Shown: positions 8,018 through 30,049, counted from the first letter of the stretch. The stretch: 32,000 nucleotides of DNA from Geotalea uraniireducens Rf4 (GCF_000016745.1 NC_009483.1:150001-182000), one strand, 5' to 3'. Notes: generated by a model not told the origin, from the sequence alone. Program-made: numbers and translations.

Positions 8018-9262
8018 TCAGCGGCTCTTCCAATCCTTCATGGGGTACTGGGCAGGAGCTTCCAGTGAAGCTTTCGGCCCGACAGTCATTATCTTGCTGT
8101 TCTGGATCTGTACGGTGAGGGGGGTAAGACCGATATTGGCATGGTAGTACTGACCGCTCGTTGCAAATTTGACCCGGCCGTAAAAAGTCTGGACATCCAC
8201 CTCTTCAAGGGCCTTGATAAGTTTTGCCCGCATACTTTCGGACATGCCGGGTGTCGCGCCTATCTTCTGCAGCGCTACCTGGAAGGCGATGCCGGCAGCC
8301 GAGCAGCCGCCCTGGGTGTAGTCGCCGGGATTGTTGAAGGCCTTCCTGGAGGCAGCTGAATAGGCGGCTGCAGTCGGCCAAAGGATCTTGCTCTTGGTGT
8401 TGGCGGTTGAGGTCCAGCAGGTCGTGCCGAAGATCTGCTCGGAATCCTTGCCCACGGCATCAATGAAGGCCTTCTCGGTGATGCCGCAATGCATTAAGAG
8501 GGCTTTGGGCGTATAGCCGATCTGGCGAAGGGCTTTGACCATCTTGACATGCTCTTCGTCGTGACCGCCGAAAGCAACGACATCCGGTTTCATCCCGCGG
8601 ATGGCGGAAAGGAGCGGGGTCATATCCTGACCGGAGGGGACGATGCTGAATTTGACCACTTTCAGCCTTGCCGCTTCTGCCGCTGCCTTGTATGCCTCAG
8701 CGGTAGCCTTGGAAAAGGCGTCATTGGAGCCGATGATAGCGATGGTCTTCGGCGCCGGCTTCAGTTCGGTCAAGGTCTTGATGGAAGCAGCGCCGGTGAA
8801 GTTGATCGGCGGGATGGTGCCGAACGTATAGTAGAATTTGTTGGTCCAGATGAGGGGGGATTCGGCGGAGCCGGTAATCATTGGCACCTTGTACTTGTCG
8901 ACCACCGGGGCAACCGCGAGGGTGACGCCTGAAGAGTACGGTCCAAGGATAAAGTCGACATTCTCCTGGGTAATCAATCTTTCCGCTGCCGCAGCTCCAG
9001 CGGCGGGGTTGGACTGGGCATCAGCATAAACGAGCTTGACCGGGTATTTCTTCCCCTTGATGACGATGCCTCCTTTGGCATTCACCTCCTGGGCCCACAG
9101 GTCATAGCCGCGCTTGGTGATGTTGCCGCCGGTAGCCAGGTCTCCGGAGAGTTCCGTGATTACCCCTACCTTGAAATAGTTCCGCGCTTCCTGGGCGAAG
9201 AGCGGGGTGACCAGCATCAGGGTGCAGATGAGGGCCATTACAAACAGTACACCACGTTTCAT
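8018..9262 (-). CDS. Periplasmic amino-acid-binding protein of the ABC transporter (LivK/LivJ family fold)
   Basis: 414-aa ORF with a signal peptide (MKRGVLFVMALICTLMLVTPLFAQE), GGAGG 6 nt upstream of the ATG, and the usual type-I periplasmic binding protein pattern (KVGVITELSGDLA..GG). The substrate cannot be read from sequence. Confidence 0.85.
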   Translation of the reverse strand: MKRGVLFVMALICTLMLVTPLFAQEARNYFKVGVITELSGDLATGGNITKRGYDLWAQEVNAKGGIVIKGKKYPVKLVYADAQSNPAAGAAAAERLITQENVDFILGPYSSGVTLAVAPVVDKYKVPMITGSAESPLIWTNKFYYTFGTIPPINFTGAASIKTLTELKPAPKTIAIIGSNDAFSKATAEAYKAAAEAARLKVVKFSIVPSGQDMTPLLSAIRGMKPDVVAFGGHDEEHVKMVKALRQIGYTPKALLMHCGITEKAFIDAVGKDSEQIFGTTCWTSTANTKSKILWPTAAAYSAASRKAFNNPGDYTQGGCSAAGIAFQVALQKIGATPGMSESMRAKLIKALEEVDVQTFYGRVKFATSGQYYHANIGLTPLTVQIQNSKIMTVGPKASLEAPAQYPMKDWKSR

Positions 9263-9362: not shown

Positions 9363-9378
9363 AGCACAAGTCATGCCA
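9363..9378 (-). promoter_or_regulatory. Sigma-54 (-24/-12) promoter candidate for the ABC-gabD-gdh operon
   Basis: The minus strand reads TGGCATG-ACTT-GTGCT. The GG-N10-GC spacing is exact against the consensus TGGCACG-N4-TTGCW. It lies about 100 nt upstream of the binding-protein ATG, with a sigma-54 activator gene immediately upstream. Confidence 0.6.
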
Positions 9379-9657: not shown

Positions 9658-11433
9658 TCAGGTCAAGCCGTACTTCTTGAGTTTGCGGGCGATGGTGGAT
9701 TGATTCACCCCCAAGACCTCAGCCATCCTGCATTGGTTGCCGTATCGCTCCACTGCCTGGGCAAGGACGTTTCGCTCTACGCTGTCGATTGCCTGTTGCA
9801 GGCTCATTTCTTCAGGCCAAGCCATGGATGCCTTGCCCGTTTCCTCCACGCGGGCGACGATATCGCCGGGAAGGTCCTTGAGATCGATCAATTCCATTTC
9901 GGACATGACAACCAGTCGCTCGCAGATGTTCATGAGCTCGCGCACGTTGCCCGGATAAGGGTAAGACATCAAAATGTCCGAGGCGGCCCGGGTAAGCCGT
10001 TTCTTGATGCCGGTCTTCGTCCCGAAAAAGTCGATGTAATGGTGAATGAGAGGCAGTATGCAGTCTTTCCGCTCCCGTACAGACGGGACATAGATGGGGA
10101 TGACTTTCAATCGATAATAGAGATCAAGCCGGAATTTCCCCTGGCTGACCATCTCCTCCAGGTTGCGGTGGGTCGCCGCGAGAATGCGGACGTCAACGGT
10201 GCGTCCGTTGGTCCCGCCAAGACGTGTGATGCGGCCGTCTTCAAGGAAGCGGAGCAATTTGACCTGCGAGGAGAGGGGGAGCTCGGCGATCTCGTCAAGA
10301 AAGAGGGTTCCCCCATCTGCCAGCTCGAAATATCCCGGCTTGCCGCCGGCTTGGGCGCCGGTAAAGGCGCCTTTCTCGTAGCCGAACAGCTCGGATTCAA
10401 TCAGGGATTCAGGGATGGCGCCGCAGTTGATCTTGATGAGCGGCTTTTTCGCCCGCAGTGAATTCTTGTGGATCAGGTCGGCGATCAGCCCCTTTCCCAC
10501 GCCGGATTCGCCGAGAATCAGCACCGACGAGTCAACGGTACTGACCTTGATCGCCTGATGGAGCGCCTTGAGCATGACGGGGCTCCGGGCTATGACCCGA
10601 TGCGACTCCAGCTCCACCTGCTGCTTCTCGATCATGTGGTGGCGGAACTGGTCTTTCATGGCCTCCTGCTCCTCCAACTCCCGTTGCAGGATATCGATCT
10701 CGGTAATGTCGCGTTCGCTCACCACGACCCTGATCAGCCGTCCGGCTGTATCGAAAACAGGGGTGCCGGTCAGGATCAGCTTGCGTCCTTCCCGCTGTTG
10801 CAGCATGTTCGCAACGTTTCCGGTTCTGAGCACCTCAAGGGTGGCCGACTTGTCGAAAACCCCTTCTGCCACCAGGTCACGCATATTGTGGCCGACGACG
10901 TCCTCCGCCTTAATATGGTTGATTCGCTCCGACGCCGGATTTATACGGAGCACATTGGCTTGCGAGTCGCAGATCCAGAGCCCGTCGGAAGAGGAGTTGA
11001 TTATAGCGCCCAATTCACTGGTCAACTCCTGAAACGTCTGCATCTGCATCGCCATTTCTTCCAGGCCCGTACTTTCCACAAAAACGCAGACGGCCCCGAC
11101 TTGCTCCTTATCCAGGAGGATCGGACTTACCCTGACCAGGTAGTTCGCTTCCCCGCCCCGTACCGACACTTCAATGCTGTGGGTGTGCTTTCTGAGGCGC
11201 TGCACGACCTTCGGCCAAAGTTCCGGCAGGACGTCGTTCAGGTGGATGCCGGGATAAGCGCCGAAATTCTCGCGGGCGCTCTTGTTGGCAAGAATGGTCA
11301 TGCCGGAGGTGTTGACGGCCAGAACCCCAACTCCCATGGCGTTTACCAGCGCCTGATAGAAATCGTCGGAATTGAGCGGCGCATTGCTCAGCGGCGAATT
11401 GATGAATAACGTCGGATCGGTATTAAAAGACAT
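9658..11433 (-). CDS. Sigma-54-dependent transcriptional activator with N-terminal PAS-type sensor region (no receiver domain)
   Basis: 591-aa ORF. The AAA+ core has Walker A GESGVGKG, the sigma-54 contact loop GAFTGA (ELFGYEKGAFTGA) and Walker B TLFLDEI. The C-terminus has a Fis-type HTH (MAEVLGVNQSTIARKLKKYGL). The N-terminal ~280 aa looks like tandem PAS. Confidence 0.9.
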   Translation of the reverse strand: MSFNTDPTLFINSPLSNAPLNSDDFYQALVNAMGVGVLAVNTSGMTILANKSARENFGAYPGIHLNDVLPELWPKVVQRLRKHTHSIEVSVRGGEANYLVRVSPILLDKEQVGAVCVFVESTGLEEMAMQMQTFQELTSELGAIINSSSDGLWICDSQANVLRINPASERINHIKAEDVVGHNMRDLVAEGVFDKSATLEVLRTGNVANMLQQREGRKLILTGTPVFDTAGRLIRVVVSERDITEIDILQRELEEQEAMKDQFRHHMIEKQQVELESHRVIARSPVMLKALHQAIKVSTVDSSVLILGESGVGKGLIADLIHKNSLRAKKPLIKINCGAIPESLIESELFGYEKGAFTGAQAGGKPGYFELADGGTLFLDEIAELPLSSQVKLLRFLEDGRITRLGGTNGRTVDVRILAATHRNLEEMVSQGKFRLDLYYRLKVIPIYVPSVRERKDCILPLIHHYIDFFGTKTGIKKRLTRAASDILMSYPYPGNVRELMNICERLVVMSEMELIDLKDLPGDIVARVEETGKASMAWPEEMSLQQAIDSVERNVLAQAVERYGNQCRMAEVLGVNQSTIARKLKKYGLT

Positions 11434-11854: not shown

Positions 11855-13171
11855 ATGTCCTCCCGAAACGAAGAATTGATGCAGTTAAAGAATCAGCATG
11901 TGCCCCAGGGTGTTGCCAACTTGAGCCCCGCCTTTATAAGTAAGGCCCGCGGCGCCATCATGGTGGATGTGGATGGCCGCGAGTTGATCGATTTCGCTGG
12001 GGGCATCGGCGTGAATAACGTCGGTCACTGCCACCCGAAGGTCGTGGCGGCCATCAAGGATCAGGCTGAAAAATATATTCACACGTGCTTCCATGTCGCC
12101 CTCTACGAACCGTACGTCGAGCTTGCCGCACGGCTTAACGAACTGGCCCCGGGCGACTTCGCCAAGATGACCATGTTCGCCAATTCCGGCGCCGAGGCAG
12201 ACGAAAATGCCATAAAAATCGCACGCTACGCCACTAAACGTCCTGCCGTCATCGCCTTCGAAAACGGGTTTCACGGCCGGACACTCATGACCATGACCCT
12301 GACGAGCAAGGTCAAACCGTACAAGCTGGGTTACGGTCCTTTTGCCCCTGAAACCTACCGCATCCCCTATGCCTACTGCTACCGCTGCCCTTTCGGGATG
12401 ACATATCCCGCGTGTAAGGCCTCCTGCGCAGACTACCTGGAGGAATTTTTCATCAACCACGTGGCTGCGGAGCAAACAGCGGCGATTATTGCCGAACCGA
12501 TCCAGGGCGAAGGGGGATTCATCACCCCCCCACCCGAATATTTTGCCAAACTCCAGGCCATCTGCCAAAAATACGGCATTCTCCTCATCATTGACGAGAT
12601 CCAGACAGGAATGGGACGAACGGGAAAAATCTTCGCCATCGATCACTGGGGCATCAAGCCCGACCTGATCACTACGGCCAAGAGCCTTGCAGGCGGGATG
12701 CCGCTGAGTGCCATAACCGGCCGCGCCGAACTGATGAACATGTCTCACGCGGGAGGTCTGGGCGGAACCTACGGCGGTAATCCGATCTCCTGCCGCGCAG
12801 CCCTGGCAGTCCTTGAAATTCTGCTTGAAGACGGCTTGCTCAACAAGGCCGACGAACTCGGCGCCAAGCTTACGGCGCGTTTCGAGGAACTGCAGAAGAC
12901 CCACGAAATCATCGGAGAGGTGCGCGGCAAGGGCCCCATGTTGGCGCTTGAGCTGGTCCGTGACAGGGAAACAAAAGAACCCGCAGGCGCCGAAGCAAAA
13001 AAGTTGACCAAGCTTTGTTTCGAAAAAGGTCTGGTGATTCTTTCCTGCGGCAATCATGGTAACGTGATTCGGGTGCTGATGCCCCTGGTCATCACCGACG
13101 AGGAACTGGGTAGAGGTATTGCCATACTGGACGAGTCCCTTCACGAGCTCTCCGCGCAAAAAGCAGGCTAA
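11855..13171 (+). CDS. gabT: 4-aminobutyrate aminotransferase (class III PLP aminotransferase)
   Basis: 438-aa ORF with GGAG 8 nt upstream. It has class III motifs (FANSGAEADENAIKIAR, DEIQTGMGRTG) and the PLP-lysine context TTAKSLAGG. Confidence 0.88.
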   Translation: MSSRNEELMQLKNQHVPQGVANLSPAFISKARGAIMVDVDGRELIDFAGGIGVNNVGHCHPKVVAAIKDQAEKYIHTCFHVALYEPYVELAARLNELAPGDFAKMTMFANSGAEADENAIKIARYATKRPAVIAFENGFHGRTLMTMTLTSKVKPYKLGYGPFAPETYRIPYAYCYRCPFGMTYPACKASCADYLEEFFINHVAAEQTAAIIAEPIQGEGGFITPPPEYFAKLQAICQKYGILLIIDEIQTGMGRTGKIFAIDHWGIKPDLITTAKSLAGGMPLSAITGRAELMNMSHAGGLGGTYGGNPISCRAALAVLEILLEDGLLNKADELGAKLTARFEELQKTHEIIGEVRGKGPMLALELVRDRETKEPAGAEAKKLTKLCFEKGLVILSCGNHGNVIRVLMPLVITDEELGRGIAILDESLHELSAQKAG

Positions 13172-13446
13172 GGGACTCGGAAAATACAAATATACCATCT
13201 CGCATCCTGGCTTCGGGCCATATTTCACTGCTTCTCAATCGCAAAATCCTCAGCGTAGCCATGCTACGCCTGCGGTTTTGCTCAATCGGCGCAGCAAAAT
13301 CTGACTCCGAATCCAGGCGCGATCTCGGTACATTAGTAATTTCCGAGTTCCTAAACATTCGACTCCCGCCATCTTTACCACGGCTATAACCATGAAAACG
13401 GCAGTTAGCCACAGGATTACATTTCAAACATCAAAAGTATGAACGC

Positions 13447-13473
13447 AAAAAAGGCCGGTTTCCCGGCCTTTTT
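13447..13473. terminator. Bidirectional rho-independent terminator shared by gabT (+) and the giant cytochrome gene (-)
   Basis: AAAAAAGGCCGG-TTTC-CCGGCCTTTTT is a GC stem flanked by an A-run and a T-run. It sits between two convergent genes. Confidence 0.75.
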
Positions 13474-13493: not shown

Positions 13494-16400
13494 TTACAGC
13501 TTTGTGTGACAGGATGTACATGTAATTGTCGTGTCGGTCCAGACGACGGTCTGGCCTGCTCTCAGGTTGTGACAGGAGATGTTGGAGCAGGTAGCGGTGC
13601 CGGCGTTGTACATGCTGTCTGATAGAGCCACCTTGGCGGTATCAAAGGCTGTTGTACCGGTTTTGTAGTTGCTGCCGTTACGGCTCCAGAGGCCGGAGTA
13701 GTTGCTGAAACTTCCGGTCCTGAGCTGTGCCTTGGAGATAACCTTGAGCGGTGTGGTCGGGAAGGCGATCTCCTTCTTGCCGTTGACGTGGAAGGTGAAG
13801 TCGGCGATTCTGGCATTGCCTTTGACCAGGGCGCCGTTAACCCCTTTCGTATGGCAGGTGTTGCAGAGGGCGTTCTGGTCGTTGCCGGATACCGTCATAG
13901 TTTTGTAATGACAGGTGTTACAGGTGATGGTGGTTGACTGGCCAGGGACACCATGGCTGGAATTGCCGGAAGCAGCGGCTGCCAGTTTGCCGGATGTGCC
14001 GTTAAAGACGTTGTTGTAGTGGAGACCGACCTGGTGCGCATCGTGGGCGGCGGTCTGCGGCGAGTTGCCATGGCACTTGGCACAGCGGTCGCCACCAAGC
14101 GTGGCAAAGGTCGTGGTCCAGGCGGGTGCATGGCCGTTAAGGCCGGAGACCATGGCATTTTTGCCATCACTATGGCAGTAGACGAGATCGCAGCTCTTGT
14201 CTGAACCAGAGTTGTATACTGCGCTGCCGGTATTAAGCTTACGCAGTGAGCCGGCATAGGTGCCGCCGCTTGCTGCATCGAGCTGTACCTCGATAGTACC
14301 GTTGAGGTGGTAGGTAGCCTCTGCCGTAGGTCCGGTAGGATGGCAGTTGGCACAACCGAAGCCGTATTTTACCGGTGTCCCTTCTACGCCGCTGGATTTA
14401 TTAGCTGTGTAGGAGTAGAAAGCCACCTGGCTGGCCAGATTGAGGAGACCGGCATGGGTGGTATGGGCAGCGGACAGGTTAGCCAGCGGGTGGCAGCCGT
14501 CGCAACCGAGTGATGCACTGCCCCATGTGGCTGCTTGAGCGGTGAACTTGCCGCTGCTGTGACAGCTGATGCCGGAGCAGCTGGTTGTTCCGGTGAAGTT
14601 AACCGCAACAGTGTTGTAGGTGCTGCCCTGGTTGACGCCGATGGTGCGGTTGATGTGTTGGGCAACGCTGGCAATGGTGTTGTTGGCCTGGGTCGTATTC
14701 CAGTGGCAGTTTGCACATGTTGCGCCCTTGAGAATATGAGCGGCATGGTTGCCTGTTGACAGATTTGCTGAAGTGGAACCGTGACAGCCGCTGCAGTCAA
14801 GGGTTGAACCACTGTTCCAGGTGGCGGTCGTCGTCACTGAAACCAGTGGTGCCCCGGACTTGCCGTTGCTGTGGCATGTGAAGGTGGAGCAGGATTTGTT
14901 CTTGCCGGCATAAGCACCGGAATAGTCAACGAACTTGTTGACGTGCTTGCCGTAGGCGTTGGTAGCAATTGCGGTGGCGCTGGTGAGGGTGTTGGCATGG
15001 CAGTCGGTACATGCGAAGCCTCCACCCGCAGAAGCATTGCCGATGTGGGACTTGTGAGCGCCGGAGAGCATGTTGGGTGTGGTGGCAGGATTAGTTCCGG
15101 CGATAGTCGTTGTGGCGTTGCCGTGACAGGTAGCACAGCTTGCATCCCTGGCGGTGATGCCCCAGTTGACGGTTGTACTTACACCGTTGCTGCCGCGGCC
15201 GTTGCTGTGGCAGTAGGTGGCGGTGCAGTTGGCGTTGTTGCCGGTTGTCCATTTGAAGCTCTTGCCGTCAACCGAACCGGTTGCCGGGCGTGTATAGGCG
15301 CTGTTGGCACTAGCGCCACGACCGGCGGAACTGAAGGAGAAGAAGACCGTCGCATCGGATACGGCCGTCATAGGCATGTCGGCATGCTTGCCGGTATCGG
15401 TGCCGTGGCAGGCGGAGCAGGCAAACTGGTATGCCGTCGTGCTCTGGCTGGAACTGCCGGGGGCTGCGCCGTAAAGACCGGTGGCTACCGTTGTTGTGTT
15501 GTAGTGAATGCCATGGGCGCCTGGCAGGGCGTTGCTGGCATCGTGACACTTGTTGCAGGCGAGCGGGCCGGCGGTGCCCCAGGCATCGGATGCTGCGCTG
15601 CCGTGGCAGTAGGTTGCGGAACAGGTCCTGGCCCCTGCGTTGTAGGCGCCGGAGTTATTGGTAAAGGTGCTCGGCTTGCTGAAACGAACGTCACGAGTCT
15701 TGTTCAGGTGAGTACTGCCGGCGATAACGGCATTGGTGCCGTTGACCGTCGTGTCATGGCAGTATACGCACTTGGCGGTATCCTGGGTCGGGAGGTGTTT
15801 CACGTGGCTGTTGATACCGACGGCGTCGGGAGACGGCATACCGCTCGTGTTGCCTGTGGTGCCGTGACAGCCATTGCAGCCGAGAGTGCCGCCGCTGTTC
15901 CATGCAGGAATTGCGGTTACCGGCACCCCACCCTTGCCATTGCTGTGGCAGTAGAAGGTGCTGCAGGTCCTTGTCTTGCCGGCATAAGCGCCGGAGTAGT
16001 CAACGAACTTGTTGACATGCTTGCCGTAGGCGTTGGTAGCAATTGCGGTGGCGCTGGTGAGGGTGTTGGCATGGCAGTCGGTACAGGTGAAGCTGCCGCC
16101 GGCAGAAGCATTGCCGATGTGGGACTTGTGGGCGCCGGAGAGCATGTTGGGTGTGGTGGCGGGATTAGTTCCGGCAATAGTCGTTGTGGCGTTGCCGTGA
16201 CAGGTAGCACAGCTTGCATCCCTGGCGGTGATGCCCCAGTTGACAGTTGCACTTACACCGTTGCTGCCGCGGCCGTTGCTGTGGCAGTAGGTGGCGGTAC
16301 AGTTGGCGTTACCGCCGTTGGTCCATTTGAAGCCCTTGGTATCAGTTGAGCCGGTAGCCTGACGGACATAGGCGGTGTTGGCAGAAGCGCCACGACCGGC

Positions 16401-19400
16401 GGAGCTGAAACCGAAGAAGATAGTTGCATCGGAAACGGCCGTTCTGGGCATGTCTGCATGGGCATTGGTATCAGTGCCGTGGCAGGCGGAGCAGGCAAAC
16501 TGGTATGCGGTTGAGCTCTGGCTGGAGCTGCCGGGGACTGCACCGTAAAGACCGGTGGCTACCGTTGCAGTGTTGTAGTGGATGACGTGAGCACCGGGCA
16601 ATGCATTGCTTGAGTCATGGCACTTGTTACAGGCGAGAGGACCGGCGGTACCCCATGCATCGGATGCTGCGGTGCCGTGGCAGTAAGTTGTGGAACAGGT
16701 CCTGGCGCCGGCATTGTAGGCACCGGAGTTGTTGGTGAACGTGCTCGGCTTGCTGAAGCGGACGTTACGTGCGTTGTTGATGTGCTGGCTGCCGGTAATT
16801 ATCTCACTGGCACTGTTGACGGTGGTGTCATGGCAGTACACGCACTTGGCGGTGTCCTGGGTCGGAAGATGCTTCACATGGCTGTTGACACCGACTGCAT
16901 CGGGAGAAGGCATACCGCTCGTGTTACCGGTGGTACCGTGGCAGCCGTTACAGCCCAGGGTCGTACCGCTGGTCCAGGCAGGAAGCGCCGTGACCGGTGC
17001 GCCACCCTTGCCGTTACTGTGGCAGTAGAAGGTGGAACAGGTCCTGTTCTTGCCGGCATAGAGGCCGGAGTAGTTCACCATTCCATCCACATGCAGTGCG
17101 CTGTTGGTAATGGTGCGGTTGTCAGTATTGGTGATCGTCGGGGCGTGGCAGGAACTACACTTGAAGGCGCCCCCCTGGTTCGTGTTGTTCAAATGGGCAT
17201 TGTGAGCGCCGCTCAGTTTGGTTGCAGCGGTGACTTCGTTGCCATGGCAACCGGTACAATCGGTCGGCATGGTTGCGCCATTCCATGAGGGGGCAGTGGC
17301 TGCGCCACTGTGGCAGTAGGTTGCCGAACATGTTCCAAATCCGTTGCCGGGAGTGTTGGTGGCTTGACTGTAAGTACCAGAGCCGGCAACTCCGCTGAAA
17401 GCGACATCGATATTGTAGTCTGCATGTTTTGCGGTATCTTTACCTGCCGTGCTGTGACAGATAACACAGTCGTATCCGGCATTAACGTGGGTGGCATGGT
17501 TGGCATTTGCCGGAGGATTGCCGTGACAGGCGGAGGTATCGCATGATACGAATGGCGCCCCACCCCATGCGGGAGTTACACTCGGCGTAGCCACTGCGGA
17601 AGCATCGGCAGTCTGAACCGTGCTGTGGCAGTAAACCGAACAGGTGCCGTAGCTCAAAGCTGCTGAAGACTGGTTGGCGAAGCTCTTGTAAGTGGCATTA
17701 GCCCGGAGCTTGGATGCCGGGTTCAGTTTGGTCACCACATTGCCGTTGACATGGCCGTTATCGGCAGGAAGGGTGCCGTGGCAGTCGCTGCATGCGATAC
17801 CCATGTATCCTGCAGCCGTACCGGTATGGCGGGCATGGTTGCCTGATGTCGGTGGAGCTGCCTGGGTGGTTGCATGGCAGGCGCCGCAGGCCTTGGCCGC
17901 TGCTCCGGAGGTCCAGGAAGGCACCATCATGGAGCCGTTGCTGCCGCTATAACCGCCGTGGCAGTAGAGGTTCGAACAGGTATTGTTGTTGCCGGTTGCC
18001 ATGGTGACTGTGGTTCCGGCGTAGGTGGAAGCGCCGCTGTAAGTCGCATAAGGCGTTTTCACGGCAAAATCGCCGCCGTTGAAGGTACCCTTGAAACCGG
18101 CAATGGTTCCGCCGTTGATGTTGAAACCGAACTCGATATGCTGGTTGCCCATCGGGTTTGCGGTGTAGCCCTGGTGGCAGGTTTCGCAGGTCATGCCTCG
18201 GGCATTTACATGTGTGGCATGGGCACCCGCCTCTCCTGCACCAAGGACGCCGGTTGCCGGGGAGGCAAGACCGTCGGTGCCCAGAGTAGCATTGATGGGG
18301 GGGTAGCCGTGGCAAGTGTTACAGGATGCGCCGAATGCCTTGCCATGGGCATGACAGGAGGTACAATCAGTAAGGTTGGCGCTCTTATGATTGAGGTCGC
18401 CGGTGGTCTGGTTGTATTTGTGGACGGCAGTCTGGGTGTGGCAGACCTCGCATATGCGTGCCGATGTGGTATGGCCGCCGGCGTCGCTGCCGAAGGCAGT
18501 AACGTTGTTGAATTTTACCGGTTTGAGCACTGCCGCACCGATGGTGGCCGGAATGGACTCGACCACCCGCTTGACGTTTGCCGTGTTGCGGTTGTGGCAG
18601 GTGGCACAGGTGAACTCACCATACTGGCCCCCGACAATACCCCAGCCGCTGCTGGCTGACCAGTATTTGGCGCCCAGGTTGATGCTGTTGTGGAGCAGTG
18701 GGTCGGAAAGGGGAGGATTCGTTGCCAATGAGCCGGTGACCGGACTGCCGGTCACACCGTCACCATCGCTGAAGGTAGCCTGGAAATAATAGGTGGTGTT
18801 GGGGGTCAGTCCGCTTACGGTCGTAGAGTAGAGTCCTGCACCTTTGACGGGAGCAGGTGCTGCGTTAGGGTAGCTGCCCGGACTTGTGCCATACATGATG
18901 ACACAGCTGTTGTCGTTATTGTCATCGCCGCTGAAGGCAACCTGGACGCTGATCTGTTTGTCGGTGGCGCCGAAGAAGGACATTGCCCCTGCAATGGTGT
19001 TATTCACCGACGGTGTGTAGGAAATGGACAGCTCGTCCACCCAGAGGGAGGCGGTTGAACCAACAGGAGATCCCCCTCTCGAAGTGAGGGTGATGATGAT
19101 CTGGTTGACGTTTTGGGCTAGGACTACGGCAGGAGCAGCATTCCGTAACGCCCAGGAACTGTTGGTCAGTTCTCCGGTACTGAGGATATTGACGGTGGAG
19201 GAATCCGCATATCTGAGGCTGACAGAGATGTTATCACCAACGGCCTCACTGCTGGTGGTGAGTTGTGAGTAGAGCGACACAGTATTAATTGTTGATCCGG
19301 CCGGAATGGAGACCGTCTGCGTTACTGTGCCGGAGGTCGTAACGTTTCTGGTTGTGGCGACTTTGGCAGAGCCGCTCCCACCAGTCCGTGTGGTTGCGCT

Positions 19401-19574
19401 GTCGTAGGTGGCCGTTCCGAATGTCCAGCCAGTGCTGCCGTTGAAGATGCCGTTGGTGACCATCTCCGCGCCCCAGGCGCTGCTTGCTGTTATCAACAGC
19501 AGCAACAGGAGTGCAAATTGCTGTCCTAACCATAACTTAGTGGATCGGACTCTTACAGCAGTTCGTTTGTTCAT
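13494..19574 (-). CDS. Giant secreted multihaem c-type cytochrome-like protein (2026 aa) with a CBM-like and FN3-like N-terminal head
   Basis: I place the start at the ATG at 19574 (MNKRTAV...), which has GAAGGAGGA upstream; the TTG at 19601 in the track lies inside that SD region. The signal peptide ends AWG/AE. By my count there are about 30 CXXCH and about 14 CX3-4CH sites (CSTFYCH, CTATYCH and similar). These match the Geobacter CxxxxCH...CXXCH motif family. Confidence 0.9.
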   Translation of the reverse strand: MNKRTAVRVRSTKLWLGQQFALLLLLLITASSAWGAEMVTNGIFNGSTGWTFGTATYDSATTRTGGSGSAKVATTRNVTTSGTVTQTVSIPAGSTINTVSLYSQLTTSSEAVGDNISVSLRYADSSTVNILSTGELTNSSWALRNAAPAVVLAQNVNQIIITLTSRGGSPVGSTASLWVDELSISYTPSVNNTIAGAMSFFGATDKQISVQVAFSGDDNNDNSCVIMYGTSPGSYPNAAPAPVKGAGLYSTTVSGLTPNTTYYFQATFSDGDGVTGSPVTGSLATNPPLSDPLLHNSINLGAKYWSASSGWGIVGGQYGEFTCATCHNRNTANVKRVVESIPATIGAAVLKPVKFNNVTAFGSDAGGHTTSARICEVCHTQTAVHKYNQTTGDLNHKSANLTDCTSCHAHGKAFGASCNTCHGYPPINATLGTDGLASPATGVLGAGEAGAHATHVNARGMTCETCHQGYTANPMGNQHIEFGFNINGGTIAGFKGTFNGGDFAVKTPYATYSGASTYAGTTVTMATGNNNTCSNLYCHGGYSGSNGSMMVPSWTSGAAAKACGACHATTQAAPPTSGNHARHTGTAAGYMGIACSDCHGTLPADNGHVNGNVVTKLNPASKLRANATYKSFANQSSAALSYGTCSVYCHSTVQTADASAVATPSVTPAWGGAPFVSCDTSACHGNPPANANHATHVNAGYDCVICHSTAGKDTAKHADYNIDVAFSGVAGSGTYSQATNTPGNGFGTCSATYCHSGAATAPSWNGATMPTDCTGCHGNEVTAATKLSGAHNAHLNNTNQGGAFKCSSCHAPTITNTDNRTITNSALHVDGMVNYSGLYAGKNRTCSTFYCHSNGKGGAPVTALPAWTSGTTLGCNGCHGTTGNTSGMPSPDAVGVNSHVKHLPTQDTAKCVYCHDTTVNSASEIITGSQHINNARNVRFSKPSTFTNNSGAYNAGARTCSTTYCHGTAASDAWGTAGPLACNKCHDSSNALPGAHVIHYNTATVATGLYGAVPGSSSQSSTAYQFACSACHGTDTNAHADMPRTAVSDATIFFGFSSAGRGASANTAYVRQATGSTDTKGFKWTNGGNANCTATYCHSNGRGSNGVSATVNWGITARDASCATCHGNATTTIAGTNPATTPNMLSGAHKSHIGNASAGGSFTCTDCHANTLTSATAIATNAYGKHVNKFVDYSGAYAGKTRTCSTFYCHSNGKGGVPVTAIPAWNSGGTLGCNGCHGTTGNTSGMPSPDAVGINSHVKHLPTQDTAKCVYCHDTTVNGTNAVIAGSTHLNKTRDVRFSKPSTFTNNSGAYNAGARTCSATYCHGSAASDAWGTAGPLACNKCHDASNALPGAHGIHYNTTTVATGLYGAAPGSSSQSTTAYQFACSACHGTDTGKHADMPMTAVSDATVFFSFSSAGRGASANSAYTRPATGSVDGKSFKWTTGNNANCTATYCHSNGRGSNGVSTTVNWGITARDASCATCHGNATTTIAGTNPATTPNMLSGAHKSHIGNASAGGGFACTDCHANTLTSATAIATNAYGKHVNKFVDYSGAYAGKNKSCSTFTCHSNGKSGAPLVSVTTTATWNSGSTLDCSGCHGSTSANLSTGNHAAHILKGATCANCHWNTTQANNTIASVAQHINRTIGVNQGSTYNTVAVNFTGTTSCSGISCHSSGKFTAQAATWGSASLGCDGCHPLANLSAAHTTHAGLLNLASQVAFYSYTANKSSGVEGTPVKYGFGCANCHPTGPTAEATYHLNGTIEVQLDAASGGTYAGSLRKLNTGSAVYNSGSDKSCDLVYCHSDGKNAMVSGLNGHAPAWTTTFATLGGDRCAKCHGNSPQTAAHDAHQVGLHYNNVFNGTSGKLAAAASGNSSHGVPGQSTTITCNTCHYKTMTVSGNDQNALCNTCHTKGVNGALVKGNARIADFTFHVNGKKEIAFPTTPLKVISKAQLRTGSFSNYSGLWSRNGSNYKTGTTAFDTAKVALSDSMYNAGTATCSNISCHNLRAGQTVVWTDTTITCTSCHTKL
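14907..17054. repeat. Tandem in-frame duplication, 2 x 1074 bp (358 aa each), inside the giant cytochrome gene
   Basis: The anchor string cttgccggcata recurs at 14901, 15975 and 17049, a period of exactly 1074. Segment 14901-15240 versus 15975-16314 differs at 18 of 340 positions by my hand alignment. The remainder is roughly 80-85% identical by eye, and more diverged homologous sequence extends past both ends. Confidence 0.85.
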
Positions 19575-19752
19575 GTACTTTCCTCCTTCTTTAGAATTCA
19601 ACCGTTTTCGTTTCTACGTTAAATCGCATGAAAAACTATAATGAATAGTTAATGCGCCAGACTTTTGTTGAATTAATGGCGACTAATCGTGTAAGTAGCT
19701 GCTTCCATGAGGGAATATAGGCATTTGTGAATATATAAAGATAAATTGTTAT

Positions 19753-19768
19753 AGCACTATTGGTGCCA
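19753..19768 (-). promoter_or_regulatory. Sigma-54 (-24/-12) promoter candidate for the giant cytochrome gene
   Basis: The minus strand reads TGGCACC-AATA-GTGCT. The GG-N10-GC spacing is exact, the -24 TGGCAC is perfect, and the -12 GTGCT is the same as at 9363-9378. It is embedded in very AT-rich DNA about 180 nt upstream of the ATG. Confidence 0.65.
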
Positions 19769-19802: not shown

Positions 19803-19841
19803 CAAAAAAAGAAAGGGCTGCTTGGAGAAAAGCAGCCCTTT
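19803..19841 (-). terminator. Rho-independent terminator of glmS
   Basis: A 12-bp stem AAAGGGCTGCTT/AAGCAGCCCTTT has the loop GGAGAA. On the minus strand it is followed by CTTTTTTTGTT. It starts about 58 nt after the glmS stop. Confidence 0.75.
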
Positions 19842-23373: not shown

Positions 23374-23928
23374 ATGGGATTACCTGAAGACATATCTCTG
23401 TTTGAGCAAAGCCTGCATGACCTGATTACCAAATATGAACAGTACTTTCTCGGGTTGGAAAAACGTGAACCTTTAAAGCTTCTCGATGAGGTTGAAAGGT
23501 CGGCCCGGAAATACATGAATGTCAACATCGTCAACACCATGCTCAAATTCAAGTATAATTCACTCGTGGCATCCTTCAGTACCCATAAGCAGAAATGGAG
23601 CAGGATCAACCGGCTCATCGAGGATGGCAAGTATTCTCGGGATCGCTTTAAAATGGCGATGCACCTCGATAAAGGACCAGCAAAGCATTCTGCCCAGGAA
23701 GCGGCCGACAGCCTGGACGTCGAAATAGTCTATCAGCAGTACATAGAAGCACGCAAAGCCTGCAATCTGCCGATAAAGAACGTCACCCCCGAGATGATTG
23801 CTTCCGCCATCAACAAGCAAAAACCGGCCATATCAACCAAGTACAACTGTGACAGGGTCGAATTCAGGGTGGTTATCGAAGAAGGCAAGCCAAAGATAAA
23901 AGCCCGCCCCAAATCGTCGAAAGTGTAG
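23374..23928 (+). CDS. Hypothetical cytoplasmic protein (charged, helical; no family I can name from sequence)
   Basis: 184-aa ORF with GGAGG 6 nt upstream of the ATG and no signal peptide. It ends 36 nt before the radical-SAM gene, suggesting co-transcription. Confidence 0.6.
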   Translation: MGLPEDISLFEQSLHDLITKYEQYFLGLEKREPLKLLDEVERSARKYMNVNIVNTMLKFKYNSLVASFSTHKQKWSRINRLIEDGKYSRDRFKMAMHLDKGPAKHSAQEAADSLDVEIVYQQYIEARKACNLPIKNVTPEMIASAINKQKPAISTKYNCDRVEFRVVIEEGKPKIKARPKSSKV

Positions 23929-23964: not shown

Positions 23965-25842
23965 TTGCGTGTAGTCCTCGCCGCCGTACATACCCGCCCG
24001 TCCCCCCAAGCTGTCCCTTTGGCCAACGCCTTCCTCAAGGCATACCTGTATGCCGGTGAAGAACTTTCAGCCGGTATCCCGGTCTCGCTCGTCGATTTTT
24101 ATCTCGACTGGTCGGCGGAAGAGTGCGCGGCCGCCATACTCACTGAAAATCCCGATGCGGTAGGTTTGTCCATGTATGTCTGGAACAGGAGCCTCTGTCT
24201 GGAGATAGCAGCAGTCTTGCGCAGCCGCAGACCGGAGCTGGCCATATTTGTCGGAGGGCCTGAGGCGACAGCTGATGCGGCAGGGGTACTCAGCGACTCT
24301 TGCCTGGATTTCGTCATCACCGGGGAAGGGGAAGTGACGTTCCGCGAAGTGATGGCTCGGCTGAACGCCGGAACTTCGCTGGTCGGTACCGAGGGCGTCG
24401 CTTCATACACGGCTGGTGCCTTTGAGCATATTCCCCGCAAACCGGTGGAGCTGTTGGACACGCTGCCTTCTCCCTATCTCGGCGGATTATTGGCCCTGAA
24501 CGACCAGTGCGGCGTTCTCTGGCAGCTTTCGCGAGGGTGTGATTTTGCCTGTGATTTCTGCTTCGACCACAAGGGGGGAGCGGGTGTGCGTCGTTTCTCC
24601 CTTGAGCGGATCGCGGAGGAGCTGAAGCTATTTGCCAGGAGCAGGGTTACCCAGGTCGTTGTCCTCGATTCCACTTTCAACCAGGACATGAAAAGGGCGA
24701 AGGAAATCTTGCGGCTGATTAAAAGAATTGCGCCCCACATCCATTTTCATTTCGAGGTGCGAAGCGAATTTATCGACCAGGAACTGGCGCGACTCTTCGC
24801 GCAGATAACCTGCTCGCTCCAGATAGGATTGCAAAGTGCGGACCCGCTTATCCAGCGAAAAGTGGGCAGAATCTTCAATCCTGCGGATTTTTTAGATAAA
24901 GTTGCCCTGTTAAATGATGCCGGCGCTGTGTTTGGCTTTGATCTGATCTACGGCCTTCCCGGAGACACACTCAAGGGTTTTGCCGCCAGCCTCGATTTTG
25001 CGCTACAGCTTTATCCGAACCATCTGGACATCTTTCCTTTGGCAGTGCTCCCCGGCACGAGGCTTTTCTGCAGGGCGAGCGATTTCGGCCTCCGTTATCT
25101 GCATGTGCCGCCCTATACCGTGCTTTGCTCGCCGACTTTTTCAAAAGAGGAGATGCTTGTTGCCAAGGGGCTTGCCGCTGCCTGCGACATTTTTTACAGC
25201 CGGGGAAAGGCGGTTGTCTGGTTCAATTCGGTTCTGGCCCCCCTTAAGATGCGACCCGCGGCTTTTCTTGACGAGTTCCGATTGTGGCTGGCGGGGAAGG
25301 AGGGGGCGGGAATATCCGAGGAGCAGCTTTCCGATGCCCGGATCTGGCAAATGCAACGGGATTTCCTGCAGGATATTTTTGCTGAAAAGAAAAAAATCAA
25401 ACTGCTGCCCGCGGTTCTTGACCTGGTTGACTATCATTATTACTACGCCGTTGCCCTTCTTTCGCCGGCGCCGGAACTACCCACTGATCGAGACCTGGAG
25501 CAGATGAATCTGCTCGATGAGCCGCTCGTGTTATCACAGTCAGCCAGAATCGCACGGTTTAATTATGAAATATACGATATATTGGCATCGGGTGACATCG
25601 ACCTGCGGGAATTTACCGACTGTTTTGTTGCCGGCGGTTCATTTGCCGTTATCTATCCGCGAGGAGACGAAGTATTCACGGAATCCCTCATTGAACCCTA
25701 CTATCGATTACTCATCGGTTTAACCAAGATGCTTTCCGCCAGGGAGATCTGTGCAGGAATCGGTCTCCCTGGCGAGGAGGCGACATCATTCCTGGAATTT
25801 GCCGTCTCAGAAGGCATTGTTGTTTCCGCCGGCAAAACCTGA
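23965..25842 (+). CDS. B12-binding-domain radical SAM protein with a ~200-aa C-terminal extension of unknown function
   Basis: 625-aa ORF with a TTG start and GGAGAA upstream. It has an N-terminal cobalamin-binding-type domain (VGLSMYVWN..., FVGGPEAT) and the radical SAM cluster motif CDFACDFC (CX3CX2C). The N-terminal pattern resembles the DUF4080-type subgroup, but that is recollection only. Confidence 0.8.
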   Translation: MRVVLAAVHTRPSPQAVPLANAFLKAYLYAGEELSAGIPVSLVDFYLDWSAEECAAAILTENPDAVGLSMYVWNRSLCLEIAAVLRSRRPELAIFVGGPEATADAAGVLSDSCLDFVITGEGEVTFREVMARLNAGTSLVGTEGVASYTAGAFEHIPRKPVELLDTLPSPYLGGLLALNDQCGVLWQLSRGCDFACDFCFDHKGGAGVRRFSLERIAEELKLFARSRVTQVVVLDSTFNQDMKRAKEILRLIKRIAPHIHFHFEVRSEFIDQELARLFAQITCSLQIGLQSADPLIQRKVGRIFNPADFLDKVALLNDAGAVFGFDLIYGLPGDTLKGFAASLDFALQLYPNHLDIFPLAVLPGTRLFCRASDFGLRYLHVPPYTVLCSPTFSKEEMLVAKGLAAACDIFYSRGKAVVWFNSVLAPLKMRPAAFLDEFRLWLAGKEGAGISEEQLSDARIWQMQRDFLQDIFAEKKKIKLLPAVLDLVDYHYYYAVALLSPAPELPTDRDLEQMNLLDEPLVLSQSARIARFNYEIYDILASGDIDLREFTDCFVAGGSFAVIYPRGDEVFTESLIEPYYRLLIGLTKMLSAREICAGIGLPGEEATSFLEFAVSEGIVVSAGKT

Positions 25843-29973: not shown

Positions 29974-30049
29974 TGGTGGAGATGATCGGGATCGAACCGA
30001 CGGCCTATGCGTTGCGAACGCATCGCTCTCCCAACTGAGCTACATCCCC
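29974..30049 (-). tRNA. tRNA-Ala (anticodon CGC)
   Basis: The 76-nt reverse complement is GGGGATGTAGCTCAGTTGGGAGAGCGATGCGTTCGCAACGCATAGGCCGTCGGTTCGATCCCGATCATCTCCACCA. It folds as a cloverleaf with the G3:U70 alanine identity pair, anticodon loop TTCGCAA, T-loop TTCGATC and an encoded CCA. Confidence 0.92.

What the first reader, a model, noticed from the sequence alone, without database searches (positions are those of the whole stretch)
13494..19574. Giant secreted multihaem protein: a CBM-like and FN3-like head on about ten [CX4CH-CXXCH-CXXCH] triads
- **Head domains.** After the signal peptide (cleavage about AWG/AE) comes a ~150-aa segment. It begins NGIFNGSTGW and ends LWVDELSISY, the pattern of CBM4/9/22-type beta-sandwich binding modules. 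An FN3-like segment follows (GLTPNTTYYFQATFSDGDG).
- **Haem-site count.** The rest holds about 30 CXXCH and about 14 CX3-4CH sites by my count.
- **Triad order.** After five canonical sites the motifs fall into a strict order. Each module is one C-x4-CH (CSTFYCH, CTATYCH, CSATYCH), then about 20 aa with a conserved Trp, then a CXXCH, then a second CXXCH. This repeats about ten times at roughly 120-aa spacing.
- **Known family.** The C-x4-CH...CXXCH pair is catalogued as the Geobacter motif GSu_C4xC__C2xCH. I know of no established structure or function for it.
- **Composition.** The protein is rich in Thr, Ser, Gly, Ala and Asn and has few charged residues.
- **Inference.** A binding module fused to up to about 44 redox sites suggests a substrate- or surface-anchored electron conduit.
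- **Context.** The gene is a stand-alone unit between housekeeping gabT and glmS, bracketed by terminators and AT-rich DNA.
Basis: partly seen in the sequence, partly recalled or inferred. Interest (0 to 1): 0.8.

Follow-up and report, generated by a model that had tools for sequence, protein, structure and literature searches.

The report
Catalogued 44-haem Geotalea cytochrome
This is a real, intact gene for a roughly 230 kDa exported protein with 44 haem-binding sites, but it is already in the databases as a member of a known, functionally uncharacterised family of giant Geobacter-type cytochromes.

Summary
The ORF at 13494-19574 (-) encodes 2026 aa with exactly 30 CXXCH, 13 CX4CH and 1 CX3CH. 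88 of its 89 Cys lie in these motifs.

- **Identity.** It is identical to ABQ24336.1/WP_011937065.1 of Geotalea uraniireducens Rf4, named "CxxxxCH/CxxCH domain c-type cytochrome". The G. daltonii orthologue is already annotated "cytochrome c, 44 heme-binding sites".
- **Family.** TIGR01904 and PF09698 each match 13 times.
- **Head.** A confident model (pLDDT 89) shows a jelly-roll sandwich plus an FN3 domain. Foldseek matches CBM16/22/4 and FNIII pairs. Pfam's CBM_4_9 does not hit this protein.
- **New here, repeat phase.** The repeat reads best as 13 triheme modules, HxxH-CXXCH-H-CX4CH-W-CXXCH, which has the c7 order of sites. There are enough conserved His for all-bis-His ligation. The modules group into about 360-aa nine-haem super-units.
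- **New here, duplication.** Two super-units are a 1074-bp tandem duplication that is evolving in concert.
- **New here, promoter.** A sigma-54-type promoter is conserved in all five orthologous loci, although the neighbouring genes differ.

The most likely function is a single-polypeptide haem wire for extracellular electron transfer. This is inferred, not shown. The repeat could not be modelled (pLDDT 48), and I found no experimental data.

The parts
13494..19574 (-). Whole gene, 2026 codons plus stop: 44-haem c-type cytochrome, identical to ABQ24336.1/WP_011937065.1 of Geotalea uraniireducens Rf4
19470..19574 (-). Sec-type signal peptide, residues 1-35: basic n-region, L-rich core, AWG|AE cleavage site, no lipobox Cys
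   Evidence: Read from the sequence. The mature start [AT]EMVTNG follows unrelated leader peptides in more than 15 homologues. No signal-peptide predictor was available.
18990..19469 (-). N-terminal jelly-roll beta-sandwich, residues 36-195 (CBM/MAM-like fold)
   Evidence: AF2 pLDDT mostly above 90. Foldseek matches CBM16 2zex at TM 0.65, CBM22 4xup at 0.59, CBM4 3k4z and MAM-Ig 2c9a. No Pfam hit for this protein.
18705..18989 (-). FN3-like Ig domain, residues 196-290; it contains the only Cys outside a haem motif (C224)
   Evidence: AF2. FNIII-pair hits. Pur_ac_phosph_N E 1.5e-5, below threshold. FN3con E 3e-4.
18615..18704 (-). Conserved 'LLHNS...GGWG.xGGxYGE' cap that joins FN3 to the first haem site, residues 291-320
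   Evidence: Conserved in dozens of homologues right after the FN3 domain. It is disordered in the apo model.
18264..18614 (-). Lead-in segment with four canonical CXXCH sites (323, 375, 404, 418)
13497..18263 (-). Thirteen triheme modules, residues 438-2026, each HxxH-CXXCH-H-CX4CH-W-CXXCH, with one extra CXXCH in the last module. They group into four nine-haem super-units of about 360 aa (526-817, 826-1203, 1193-1560, 1551-1896).
14892..17039 (-). Tandem duplication of one nine-haem super-unit, 2 x 1074 bp (residues 846-1203 and 1204-1561): 85% DNA and 88% protein identity
19753..19768 (-). Sigma-54-type promoter element TGGCACcaataGTGCT, about 180 nt upstream of the start codon
   Evidence: present in all five orthologous loci despite different neighbouring genes. 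2 matches in the window against 0.13 expected.
19581..19590 (-). Ribosome-binding site AGAAGGAGGA, ending 6 nt before the ATG
19812..19841 (-). Terminator of upstream glmS (12-bp stem plus T-run), which isolates the cytochrome gene from glmUS
13447..13473 (-). Intrinsic terminator of the cytochrome gene, starting 21 nt after the stop codon: -18.4 kcal/mol, z -4.0, followed by a U-run

Best explanation
The gene encodes a Sec-exported holoprotein of about 230 kDa from Geotalea uraniireducens. It belongs to the CxxxxCH/CxxCH (TIGR01904/PF09698) family of giant Geobacterales cytochromes.

**Shown here**
- 44 covalent-haem motifs.
- A jelly-roll plus FN3 head.
- A four-haem lead-in, followed by 13 repeats of a triheme module.
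- Each module has the order HxxH-CXXCH-H-CX4CH-W-CXXCH. This is the order of distal histidines and haem sites in cytochrome c7.
- Each module therefore supplies three haem sites and three conserved distal His.
- The modules are nested in nine-haem super-units.
- The gene is monocistronic, with a conserved sigma-54-type promoter and its own terminator.

**Inferred**
- All haems are bis-His and low-potential, and they pack edge to edge into one continuous chain.
- By scaling from a published 27-haem, 350 Å model of a comparable wire-like cytochrome (not shown to be a relative of this protein), the chain would be tens of nanometres long.
- After maturation by the Ccm system in the periplasm, the protein is placed at or beyond the outer surface.
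- There it carries respiratory electrons to insoluble or distant acceptors such as Fe(III)/Mn(IV) oxides, U(VI), humics or partner cells.
- The lectin-like head and FN3 spacer tether one end to a surface, a polysaccharide matrix or a partner protein.
- Expression is switched on by an unidentified enhancer-binding protein acting with RpoN.
For: - **Motifs and Cys use:**
- **Family HMMs, 13 copies each:**
- **Exact database identity and the '44 heme-binding sites' orthologue:**
- **Module alignment:** 12 invariant columns (H, H, CxxCH, Cx4CH, W, CxxCH) across all 13 modules.
- **Family-wide conservation:** the same His, Trp and Cys are invariant in 29 super-units from distant relatives.
- **Distal ligands:** 47 non-motif His for 44 sites, with 13 HxxH.
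- **c7 resemblance:** PF14522 Cytochrome_C7 scores 97.5 bits against a cut-off of 24.8. It covers nearly the whole profile in 7 of 10 single modules.
- **Head fold:**
- **Recurrent architecture:** the same head sits on other giant cytochromes, with FN3 or Big_5 spacers.
- **Promoter:** the sigma-54 element is conserved in five orthologous loci.
- **Terminators:**
- **Assembly:** an independent metagenome assembly gives the same 2026-aa architecture.
- **Literature:** wire-like predicted structures and a predicted extracellular location for giant, uncharacterised Desulfuromonadia cytochromes (PMC11492766).
Against: - No localisation, expression or haem-content data exist for this protein in the held literature.
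- The AF2 model of a nine-haem unit was unusable (pLDDT 47.6), so haem packing and the c7-like fold are not shown.
- Profile searches of the PDB gave only motif-level matches.
- No porin or other secretion partner lies nearby.
- The hematite-binding motif [ST]P[ST] is not enriched: 2 found against 3.9 expected.
- The CBM_4_9 HMM does not hit the head.
- Another G. uraniireducens strain reportedly has no cytochrome with more than 27 motifs (PMC9961858). The gene is therefore probably dispensable.
Confidence: 0.55

Rival explanations
1. The protein stays in the periplasm and works as an electron store or capacitor, or as a membrane-to-membrane bridge. This role has been proposed for the c7-polymer cytochrome GSU1996. 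On this reading the head only docks it to a periplasmic or outer-membrane partner.
For: - It has only a Sec signal peptide, with no lipobox, no C-terminal sorting signal and no adjacent porin.
- It has the c7-like order of sites.
- The 2024 survey lists electron storage as one reason for long haem-count tails. It also notes many long cytochromes predicted to be periplasmic (PMC11492766).
Against: - By scaling from the published 27-haem, 350 Å model, a 44-haem chain would be several times the cited periplasm width of about 170 Å (PMC11492766).
- Jelly-roll plus FN3/Big_5 heads and a Thr/Ser/Asn-rich, low-charge composition are typical of surface or secreted proteins. That point is inference from general knowledge.
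Confidence: 0.25
2. The protein is matrix-anchored. The CBM-like head binds the cell's own exopolysaccharide and so fixes the haem wire in the biofilm matrix, rather than binding a mineral substrate. This is a variant of the best explanation with a specific ligand.
For: - The nearest single-domain fold matches are carbohydrate-binding modules: CBM16, CBM22 and CBM4.
- 2 of the homologous heads weakly hit CBM_4_9.
- No mineral-binding motif is enriched.
- From memory: cytochrome anchoring by the Xap exopolysaccharide is described for G. sulfurreducens.
Against: - No HMM-level CBM membership for this protein.
- Equally good fold matches go to MAM and ephrin-receptor domains, which bind proteins.
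- No polysaccharide genes lie nearby, other than housekeeping glmS and glmU.
Confidence: 0.15
3. The giant ORF is an assembly artefact: a repeat expansion or a chimera. Alternatively it is a decaying, unexpressed gene.
For: - It contains a 2 x 1074-bp tandem repeat.
- In Geotalea sp. SG265 the orthologue is cut by a contig end.
- In one metagenome contig the N-terminus is split into a 68-aa ORF plus a 1930-aa ORF.
Against: - The repeat copies differ at 15% of bases, and the longest identical run is 68 nt.
- The sequence is identical to a protein of a 5.1-Mb genome record.
- An independent groundwater metagenome assembly gives the same 2026 aa at 95% identity.
- G. daltonii (76% identity) and a third lineage (79%) keep the same 30+13+1 motifs.
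- Between the two copies, 86 codons differ synonymously and 42 non-synonymously.
- All haem and distal-His columns are invariant.
- The RBS, promoter and terminator are intact.
Confidence: 0.03

Closest known systems
CxxxxCH/CxxCH domain c-type cytochromes (TIGR01904 / Pfam PF09698 GSu_C4xC__C2xCH). A published table of NIT-SL11 homologues points to G. sulfurreducens OmcG, OmcH, OmcM, OmcN, GSU2884 and GSU0702 as likely members.
   Same: - It is a direct member: 13 domain hits far above the curated cut-offs.
- NCBI gives it the same name.
- The G. daltonii orthologue is annotated with 44 haem sites.
- It has the same repeated CX4CH...W...CXXCH unit and, like some relatives, Ig-like N-terminal domains.
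   Different: - It has more copies, 13. From memory, the family description cites 3-8 per G. sulfurreducens protein.
- It carries a jelly-roll head.
- It is a single-gene unit rather than part of an omc cluster.
- The G. sulfurreducens proteins themselves were not compared here. Their link to the family rests on the CX4CH counts tabulated for their NIT-SL11 homologues (PMC9961858).
Polymers of cytochrome c7-type triheme domains (GSU1996, GSU0592; PpcA as the monomer)
   Same: - Tandem triheme modules with the c7 order HxxH-CXXCH-H-CXXCH-CXXCH.
- PF14522 matches at 97.5 bits, with near full-length coverage of single modules.
- The concept of a wire in a single polypeptide.
   Different: - The middle haem uses CX4CH.
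- Modules are 104-197 aa as segmented here. From memory, c7 domains are about 70-80 aa.
- No conserved Met that could give the His-Met haem described for GSU1996 (from memory).
- No detectable pairwise or PDB-profile similarity.
- Membership of this fold is therefore not established.
Predicted single-chain 'nanowire' multihaem cytochromes of Desulfuromonadia (AF2 atlas, PMC11492766)
   Same: - Large, predicted-extracellular, wire-like cytochromes that are not encoded in a porin-cytochrome operon.
- Built of modules joined by flexible segments.
- That study counted CXXXXCH sites as well.
   Different: - The published representative has 27 haems (G. metallireducens). Whether this protein falls in that cluster could not be checked, because no supplementary files are held.
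- The head domain and the promoter are not discussed there.
Polymerising cytochrome nanowires OmcS, OmcE and OmcZ
   Same: The proposed job is the same: long-range extracellular electron transfer along stacked haems.
   Different: - Those are filaments made of 4-8-haem subunits, whereas this is one 44-haem chain.
- No sequence similarity to any solved structure at E <= 0.01.
Shewanella MtrC/OmcA decahaem surface cytochromes
   Same: - PF22113 (MtrC/MtrF domains II/IV) matches at 80 bits over 9 stretches.
- Both combine beta-sandwich domains with multihaem domains.
   Different: - The family models fail: TIGR03507 has E 0.93 and 7.8 bits against a cut-off of 209.
- No lipobox and no partner porin.
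- The beta domains sit at the N-terminus rather than being interleaved with the haem domains.

Membership tests
TIGR01904 / PF09698 CxxxxCH/CxxCH domain c-type cytochrome | HMM score above the curated cut-off | tested here: met
   TIGR01904 scores 361.9 bits against a cut-off of 27. PF09698 scores 176.3 bits against 21.7. Each matches 13 stretches.
TIGR01904 / PF09698 CxxxxCH/CxxCH domain c-type cytochrome | Several CX4CH...CXXCH pairs per protein | tested here: met
   There are 13 pairs. The Cys, His and intervening Trp are invariant in all 13.
TIGR01904 / PF09698 CxxxxCH/CxxCH domain c-type cytochrome | Covalent haem c actually attached at the CX4CH and CXXCH sites | not testable with these tools
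   This needs haem staining or mass spectrometry. CX4CH haem binding is an accepted motif (PMC11492766, Background).
Cytochrome c7-type triheme domain polymers (GSU1996-like) | c7 order of ligands and sites: HxxH, CXXCH, H, CXXCH, CXXCH | tested here: met
   All 13 modules show HxxH-CXXCH-(H)-CX4CH-CXXCH. The middle site has four spacer residues instead of two.
Cytochrome c7-type triheme domain polymers (GSU1996-like) | Match to the Pfam Cytochrome_C7 model | tested here: met
   The whole protein scores 97.5 bits against a cut-off of 24.8. In 7 of 10 single modules the match spans about positions 2-67 of the 67-position profile. Single-module E-values are weak, from 8e-6 to 0.06.
Cytochrome c7-type triheme domain polymers (GSU1996-like) | Demonstrable similarity to a solved c7 or GSU1996 structure | tested here: not met
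   PDB phmmer and two profile searches return only motif-level hits and no c7 structure. The AF2 module model is too poor for a fold search.
CBM4/9/16/22-type carbohydrate-binding module (head) | Beta-jelly-roll sandwich fold | tested here: met
   AF2 pLDDT is above 90 over residues 36-195. Foldseek matches CBM16 2zex (TM 0.65, rmsd 4.6), CBM22 4xup (0.59) and CBM4 3k4z. It also matches MAM and ephrin-receptor domains.
CBM4/9/16/22-type carbohydrate-binding module (head) | Match to a CBM family HMM | tested here: not met
   No CBM family hits this protein at E <= 1. Among the 44 sequences scanned, only 2 homologous heads reach CBM_4_9, at E 0.0017.
CBM4/9/16/22-type carbohydrate-binding module (head) | Binds a carbohydrate | not testable with these tools
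   This needs binding assays with the recombinant head.
Fibronectin type III domain (second head domain) | FN3 fold and HMM match | tested here: inconclusive
   The fold is supported by a seven-strand model and by FNIII-pair hits such as gp130, Dscam and Tie2. The HMMs are below threshold: Pur_ac_phosph_N scores 25.9 bits against 30. fn3 hits 4 of the 44 scanned sequences, at best E 0.013. FN3con has E 3e-4.
MtrC/OmcA decahaem family | Match to the family models TIGR03507 or TIGR03508 | tested here: not met
   TIGR03507 scores 7.8 bits against a cut-off of 209. TIGR03508 scores 22 bits against 192.
Sigma-54-dependent gene | GG-N10-GC promoter element (TGGCAC-N5-TTGCW) upstream, conserved among orthologues | tested here: met
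   TGGCAY-N6-TGCT is present upstream in the window and in L001-L004, although the flanking DNA is otherwise diverged. The window has 2 matches against 0.13 expected. Dependence on RpoN itself was not tested.

The most novel reading that the evidence does not exclude
The protein would be a fixed-length haem wire of about 50 nm made from one polypeptide: 13 c7-like triheme modules that use a CX4CH middle haem. A lectin-like jelly-roll/FN3 head would tether one end to a polysaccharide or partner surface, and an RpoN-dependent switch would turn it on. That would make it an alternative to polymerised OmcS/OmcE/OmcZ filaments and the first mechanistic model for the whole TIGR01904 family.
Probability: 0.3. 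Interest if true: 0.6.

Novelty: already known. Interest (0 to 1): 0.3.

Why it matters
- **Unstudied class.** Giant single-chain cytochromes are common in metal-reducing Geobacterales, yet none of the CX4CH family has a solved structure, a measured haem count or a tested role.
- **Target choice.** G. uraniireducens matters for uranium bioremediation, and published work cited here reports low-conductivity pili, so its extracellular electron route is open. This gene is compact, has its own promoter and is conserved across several Geotalea lineages, which makes it a practical target for cryo-EM and knock-out work.
- **Use for modelling.** The module definition given here (three haems plus three distal His per repeat, nine-haem super-units) could guide haem-aware modelling.
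- **Use for genetics.** The conserved sigma-54 promoter is a lead for working out how the gene is regulated.
- **Limit.** The finding itself adds no new kind of system.

Tried and rejected
- **AF2 of one nine-haem super-unit** (residues 826-1203, 29-row alignment): mean pLDDT 47.6. I did not run a fold search on it, because matches to a poor model would be meaningless. Haem-to-haem distances could not be assessed.
- **PDB sequence and profile searches** with the whole protein, the super-unit profile and the module profile: nothing, or only generic CXXCH-level hits to reaction-centre cytochromes and NrfA.
- **Riboswitch search.** I looked for a GEMM/c-di-GMP riboswitch, because such elements are reported upstream of Geobacter omc genes. 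Rfam finds only a tRNA in the window.
- **TRF tandem-repeat search:** nothing found, because its longest period is 500. The 1074-bp repeat was found by the repeat finder and by self-comparison.
- **Hematite-binding motif [ST]P[ST]:** not enriched.
- **Word-indexed search with the head alone:** it missed the obvious orthologues. The exhaustive search recovered 326 relatives.
- **Literature searches** for accessions, probable locus tags, TIGR01904 and '44 heme': no paper found. The Holmes 2009 transcriptome paper is not held, and the supplements of the 2024 survey are not held.
- **Genome-collection scan:** it returned only one locus (Geotalea sp. SG265), because the peptide patterns it used were too specific.
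- **NCBIfam scan of the alternative 'MGK...FMYQGWYRP' leader of paralogues:** no model matches.

Full report
**1. The observation**

The minus strand carries one long ORF at 13494-19601. A strong Shine-Dalgarno sequence, AGAAGGAGGA, ends 6 nt before the ATG at 19574. The product is therefore 2026 aa and starts MNKRTAV.

88 of the 89 cysteines lie in these 44 motifs. The one exception is C224, in the head. By my arithmetic, this composition would give about 0.2 CXXCH by chance.

The composition claim also holds. T+A+G+S+N make up 56% and D+E+K+R 9.3%.

The context is as described:
- gabT is convergent on the plus strand, and glmS-glmU lie upstream on the same strand.
- The flanks are AT-rich.
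- A 12-bp terminator follows glmS.
- A hairpin of -18.4 kcal/mol plus a U-run starts 21 nt after the cytochrome stop codon.

**2. Identity**

The protein is identical, residue for residue, to ABQ24336.1/WP_011937065.1 of Geotalea (Geobacter) uraniireducens Rf4. NCBI names it "CxxxxCH/CxxCH domain c-type cytochrome".

The G. daltonii FRC-32 orthologue ACM19410.1 (76% identity) is annotated "cytochrome c, 44 heme-binding sites". Pfam PF09698 (176 bits) and TIGR01904 (362 bits) each match 13 times. The family assignment is therefore correct, and it is already in the public annotation.

I found no paper that mentions the accession, the probable locus tags or the family accession.

A 2024 survey of Desulfuromonadia cytochromes (PMC11492766) covers comparable proteins:
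- It describes clusters of uncharacterised cytochromes that are predicted to be extracellular and wire-like. One representative has 27 haems and a modelled length of 350 Å, and is not encoded in a porin-cytochrome operon.
- It reports haem-motif counts of up to 87 per polypeptide.
- It counted CXXXXCH motifs as well as CXXCH.

**3. Not an artefact**

The only large DNA repeat is a 2 x 1074-bp tandem duplication (residues 846-1203 and 1204-1561). The copies are 85% identical in DNA, and the longest identical run is 68 nt.

An independent groundwater metagenome contig (L001, 125 kb) is fully syntenic and encodes a 2026-aa protein at 95% identity. G. daltonii and a third lineage (P0004, 79%) keep exactly 30+13+1 motifs.

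**4. Anatomy of the head**

An exhaustive phmmer search with residues 36-320 found 326 relatives. These fall into two parts:
- Residues 36-195 recur at the N-terminus of other giant cytochromes. Examples are P0018, P0019 ("26 heme-binding sites", G. daltonii), P0021-23, P0042 and P0053. They also occur on a few FN3-rich proteins that are not cytochromes.
- Residues 196-290 form an Ig-like unit, often repeated in other proteins. In dozens of them it is followed directly by the motif LLHNS...GGWG.xGGxYGE and the first CXXCH.

AF2 with a 44-row alignment gave a confident all-beta, two-domain model: pLDDT 89.2 and pTM 0.75. The cap was disordered.

Foldseek against the PDB gave two kinds of match:
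- Two-domain matches: MAM-Ig of RPTPmu, the beta-sandwich region of the GH85 endo-beta-N-acetylglucosaminidases, ephrin-receptor ectodomains and meprin.
- Single-domain matches: CBM16 (2zex, TM 0.65), CBM22 (4xup, 0.59), CBM4 (3k4z), and FNIII pairs from gp130, Dscam and Tie2.

At the HMM level the support is thin:
- No CBM model hits this protein.
- Two homologous heads reach CBM_4_9 at E about 2e-3.
- The FN3-type models are below threshold, at 25.9 bits against a cut-off of 30.
- FN3con in the PDB matches at E 3e-4.

The protein-binding MAM and ephrin-receptor domains match as well as the CBMs do.

**5. Anatomy of the cytochrome part**

Self-comparison shows four super-units of about 360 aa at residues 526-817, 826-1203, 1193-1560 and 1551-1896. 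Each has nine sites. The same nine-site unit aligns end to end in distant relatives, often as adjacent pairs. In a 29-sequence alignment all nine motifs are invariant or nearly so (at least 90% of sequences). So are one Trp per triad and several His.

This gives 13 modules of the form HxxH-CXXCH-H-CX4CH-W-CXXCH, with 12 columns invariant in all 13. This phasing accounts for two things:
- The protein ends on a CX4CH-CXXCH pair.
- There are 13 HxxH motifs and 13 TIGR01904 hits.

The site count then works out as 4 lead-in sites, plus 13 x 3, plus one extra CXXCH in the last module, which makes 44. There are 47 non-motif His, so every haem can be bis-His.

HxxH, CXXCH, H, CXXCH, CXXCH is the order found in cytochrome c7. 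That statement is from memory of PpcA. Pfam Cytochrome_C7 scores 97.5 bits for the whole protein against a cut-off of 24.8. In 7 of 10 single modules tested, the match spans roughly positions 2-67 of the 67-position profile. Several modules also match the Class III cytochrome model.

The c7 link remains at the level of pattern and HMM:
- Single-module E-values are weak.
- PDB profile searches give only motif-level hits.
- hhalign against PpcA aligned 11 columns.
- AF2 on one super-unit failed, with pLDDT 47.6.

**6. Evolution**

Within each of four lineages, the two duplicated super-units are 88-93% identical to each other. They are only 76-85% identical to their counterparts in other lineages. 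This points to gene conversion or repeated unequal exchange, with the copy number held at two.

The genomic position is not conserved:
- In G. daltonii the orthologue lies between a pyridine-nucleotide-disulphide oxidoreductase gene (part of a hybrid-cluster-protein/ferredoxin cluster) and a small unannotated ORF followed by a 2-hydroxyacid dehydrogenase gene.
- In L004 it lies between a helicase gene and tRNA-synthetase fragments.
- In Geotalea sp. SG265 there is no glmS or gabT within 6 kb upstream.

A paper on G. uraniireducens NIT-SL11 reports at most 27 motifs per cytochrome. The gene therefore seems to be absent from that strain (PMC9961858).

**7. Regulation (new here)**

About 180 nt upstream of the start codon lies TGGCACcaataGTGCT (19768-19753). 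This is a near-consensus sigma-54 -24/-12 element.

The same TGGCAY-N6-TGCT element is present upstream of all four other orthologous loci. The surrounding DNA there is largely unalignable, and the neighbouring genes differ in L002-L004. In the window the pattern occurs twice against 0.13 expected. The second site precedes the ABC-transporter gene next to a PAS-sigma54 activator at 9658-11433.

No Rfam riboswitch is present. The gene is thus a self-contained unit, probably RpoN-dependent. Its activator is unknown.

**8. Interpretation**

These points are shown:
- The protein is exported and belongs to the TIGR01904 family.
- It has 44 sites and 13 regular triheme modules.
- It has a jelly-roll/FN3 head.
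- Its gene is a monocistronic unit with a sigma-54-type promoter.

These points are inferred:
- All haems are bis-His and form a continuous chain.
- The protein sits outside the cell or on its surface.
- It takes part in extracellular electron transfer.
- The head acts as a tether.

The main rival is a periplasmic store or bridge. Arguments against mineral targeting are that [ST]P[ST] is not enriched and that no porin partner lies nearby.

**9. Verdict**

The object, however, is an already catalogued member of a known but unstudied family. It is of modest interest. It is a good experimental target, not a discovery.

Noticed in passing
window 19753-19768 (-); L001 9808-9823; L002 5833-5848; L003 7700-7715; L004 2598-2613: A sigma-54-type promoter element, TGGCAY-N6-TGCT, is conserved upstream of every orthologue of the giant cytochrome gene. 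The flanking DNA has diverged, and the neighbouring genes differ in L002-L004.
   Followed up: yes
window 9363-9378 (-), with the regulator at 9658-11433 (-): A second sigma-54-type site lies upstream of the branched-chain/urea-type ABC transporter operon (8018-9262 and downstream). It sits right after a PAS-domain sigma-54 enhancer-binding protein (best match PrdR-like). This regulator probably serves that amino-acid operon. Whether it also acts on the cytochrome gene is unknown.
   Followed up: partly
window 14892-17039 (-) and the matching regions of P0003, P0004 and P0005: The two tandem nine-haem units are more alike within each lineage (88-93%) than between lineages (76-85%). This points to concerted evolution, by gene conversion or unequal exchange, with the copy number held at two.
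   Followed up: yes
window 26170-28026 (+): A second multihaem cytochrome (618 aa; c3/c7-type Pfam hits, partial DmsE-family match) lies 6.6 kb away. It is next to a B12-binding radical SAM gene (23965-25842), a gene for a protein with the MXAN_5187 C-terminal domain (23374-23928) and a DUF4403 gene (28140-29504). The arrangement is conserved in the metagenome contig L001.
   Followed up: partly
Paralogues P0007, P0010, P0019, P0021 and P0022, N-terminal about 45 aa: Many related giant cytochromes do not have a plain signal peptide. They carry a conserved leader, MGK..(I/L)RG.S..AK..L....T.L.S.FM(Y/H)QGWY(R/K)P, which is followed directly by the same jelly-roll head in three of them (P0019, P0021, P0022). 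No NCBIfam model matches it. It may be a lineage-specific anchor or sorting signal.
   Followed up: partly
L004 2854-3060 and 3020-8812: In one metagenome contig the orthologue's N-terminus is split into a 68-aa ORF and a 1930-aa ORF. This is either a frameshift made during assembly or a real pseudogene.
   Followed up: no
L002 (Geotalea sp. SG265, NZ_JAKZFT010000027.1), contig end at 8435: The SG265 orthologue is cut off by a contig end about 620 residues into the cytochrome part. This is probably a short-read assembly break at the internal repeats.
   Followed up: no
window 11885-13228 (-): A 447-aa ORF runs antisense to gabT and matches no NCBIfam family. It is almost certainly a spurious shadow ORF. 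Long plus-strand ORFs inside the cytochrome gene, such as 14871-16349, are likewise shadows of its skewed composition: GC skew on the plus strand is +0.14 to +0.21.
   Followed up: partly
window 12-3026 (-) and 3044-4498 (-): A large NAD-specific glutamate dehydrogenase (1004 aa) and a 484-aa ORF whose L001 counterpart carries an aldehyde dehydrogenase domain (PF00171) lie downstream of the ABC transporter. Together with gabT this looks like a glutamate/GABA catabolic neighbourhood that has nothing to do with the cytochrome.
   Followed up: no
window 29974-30049 (-): A tRNA-Ala (anticodon CGC). It is the only Rfam or ARAGORN hit in the window.
   Followed up: yes
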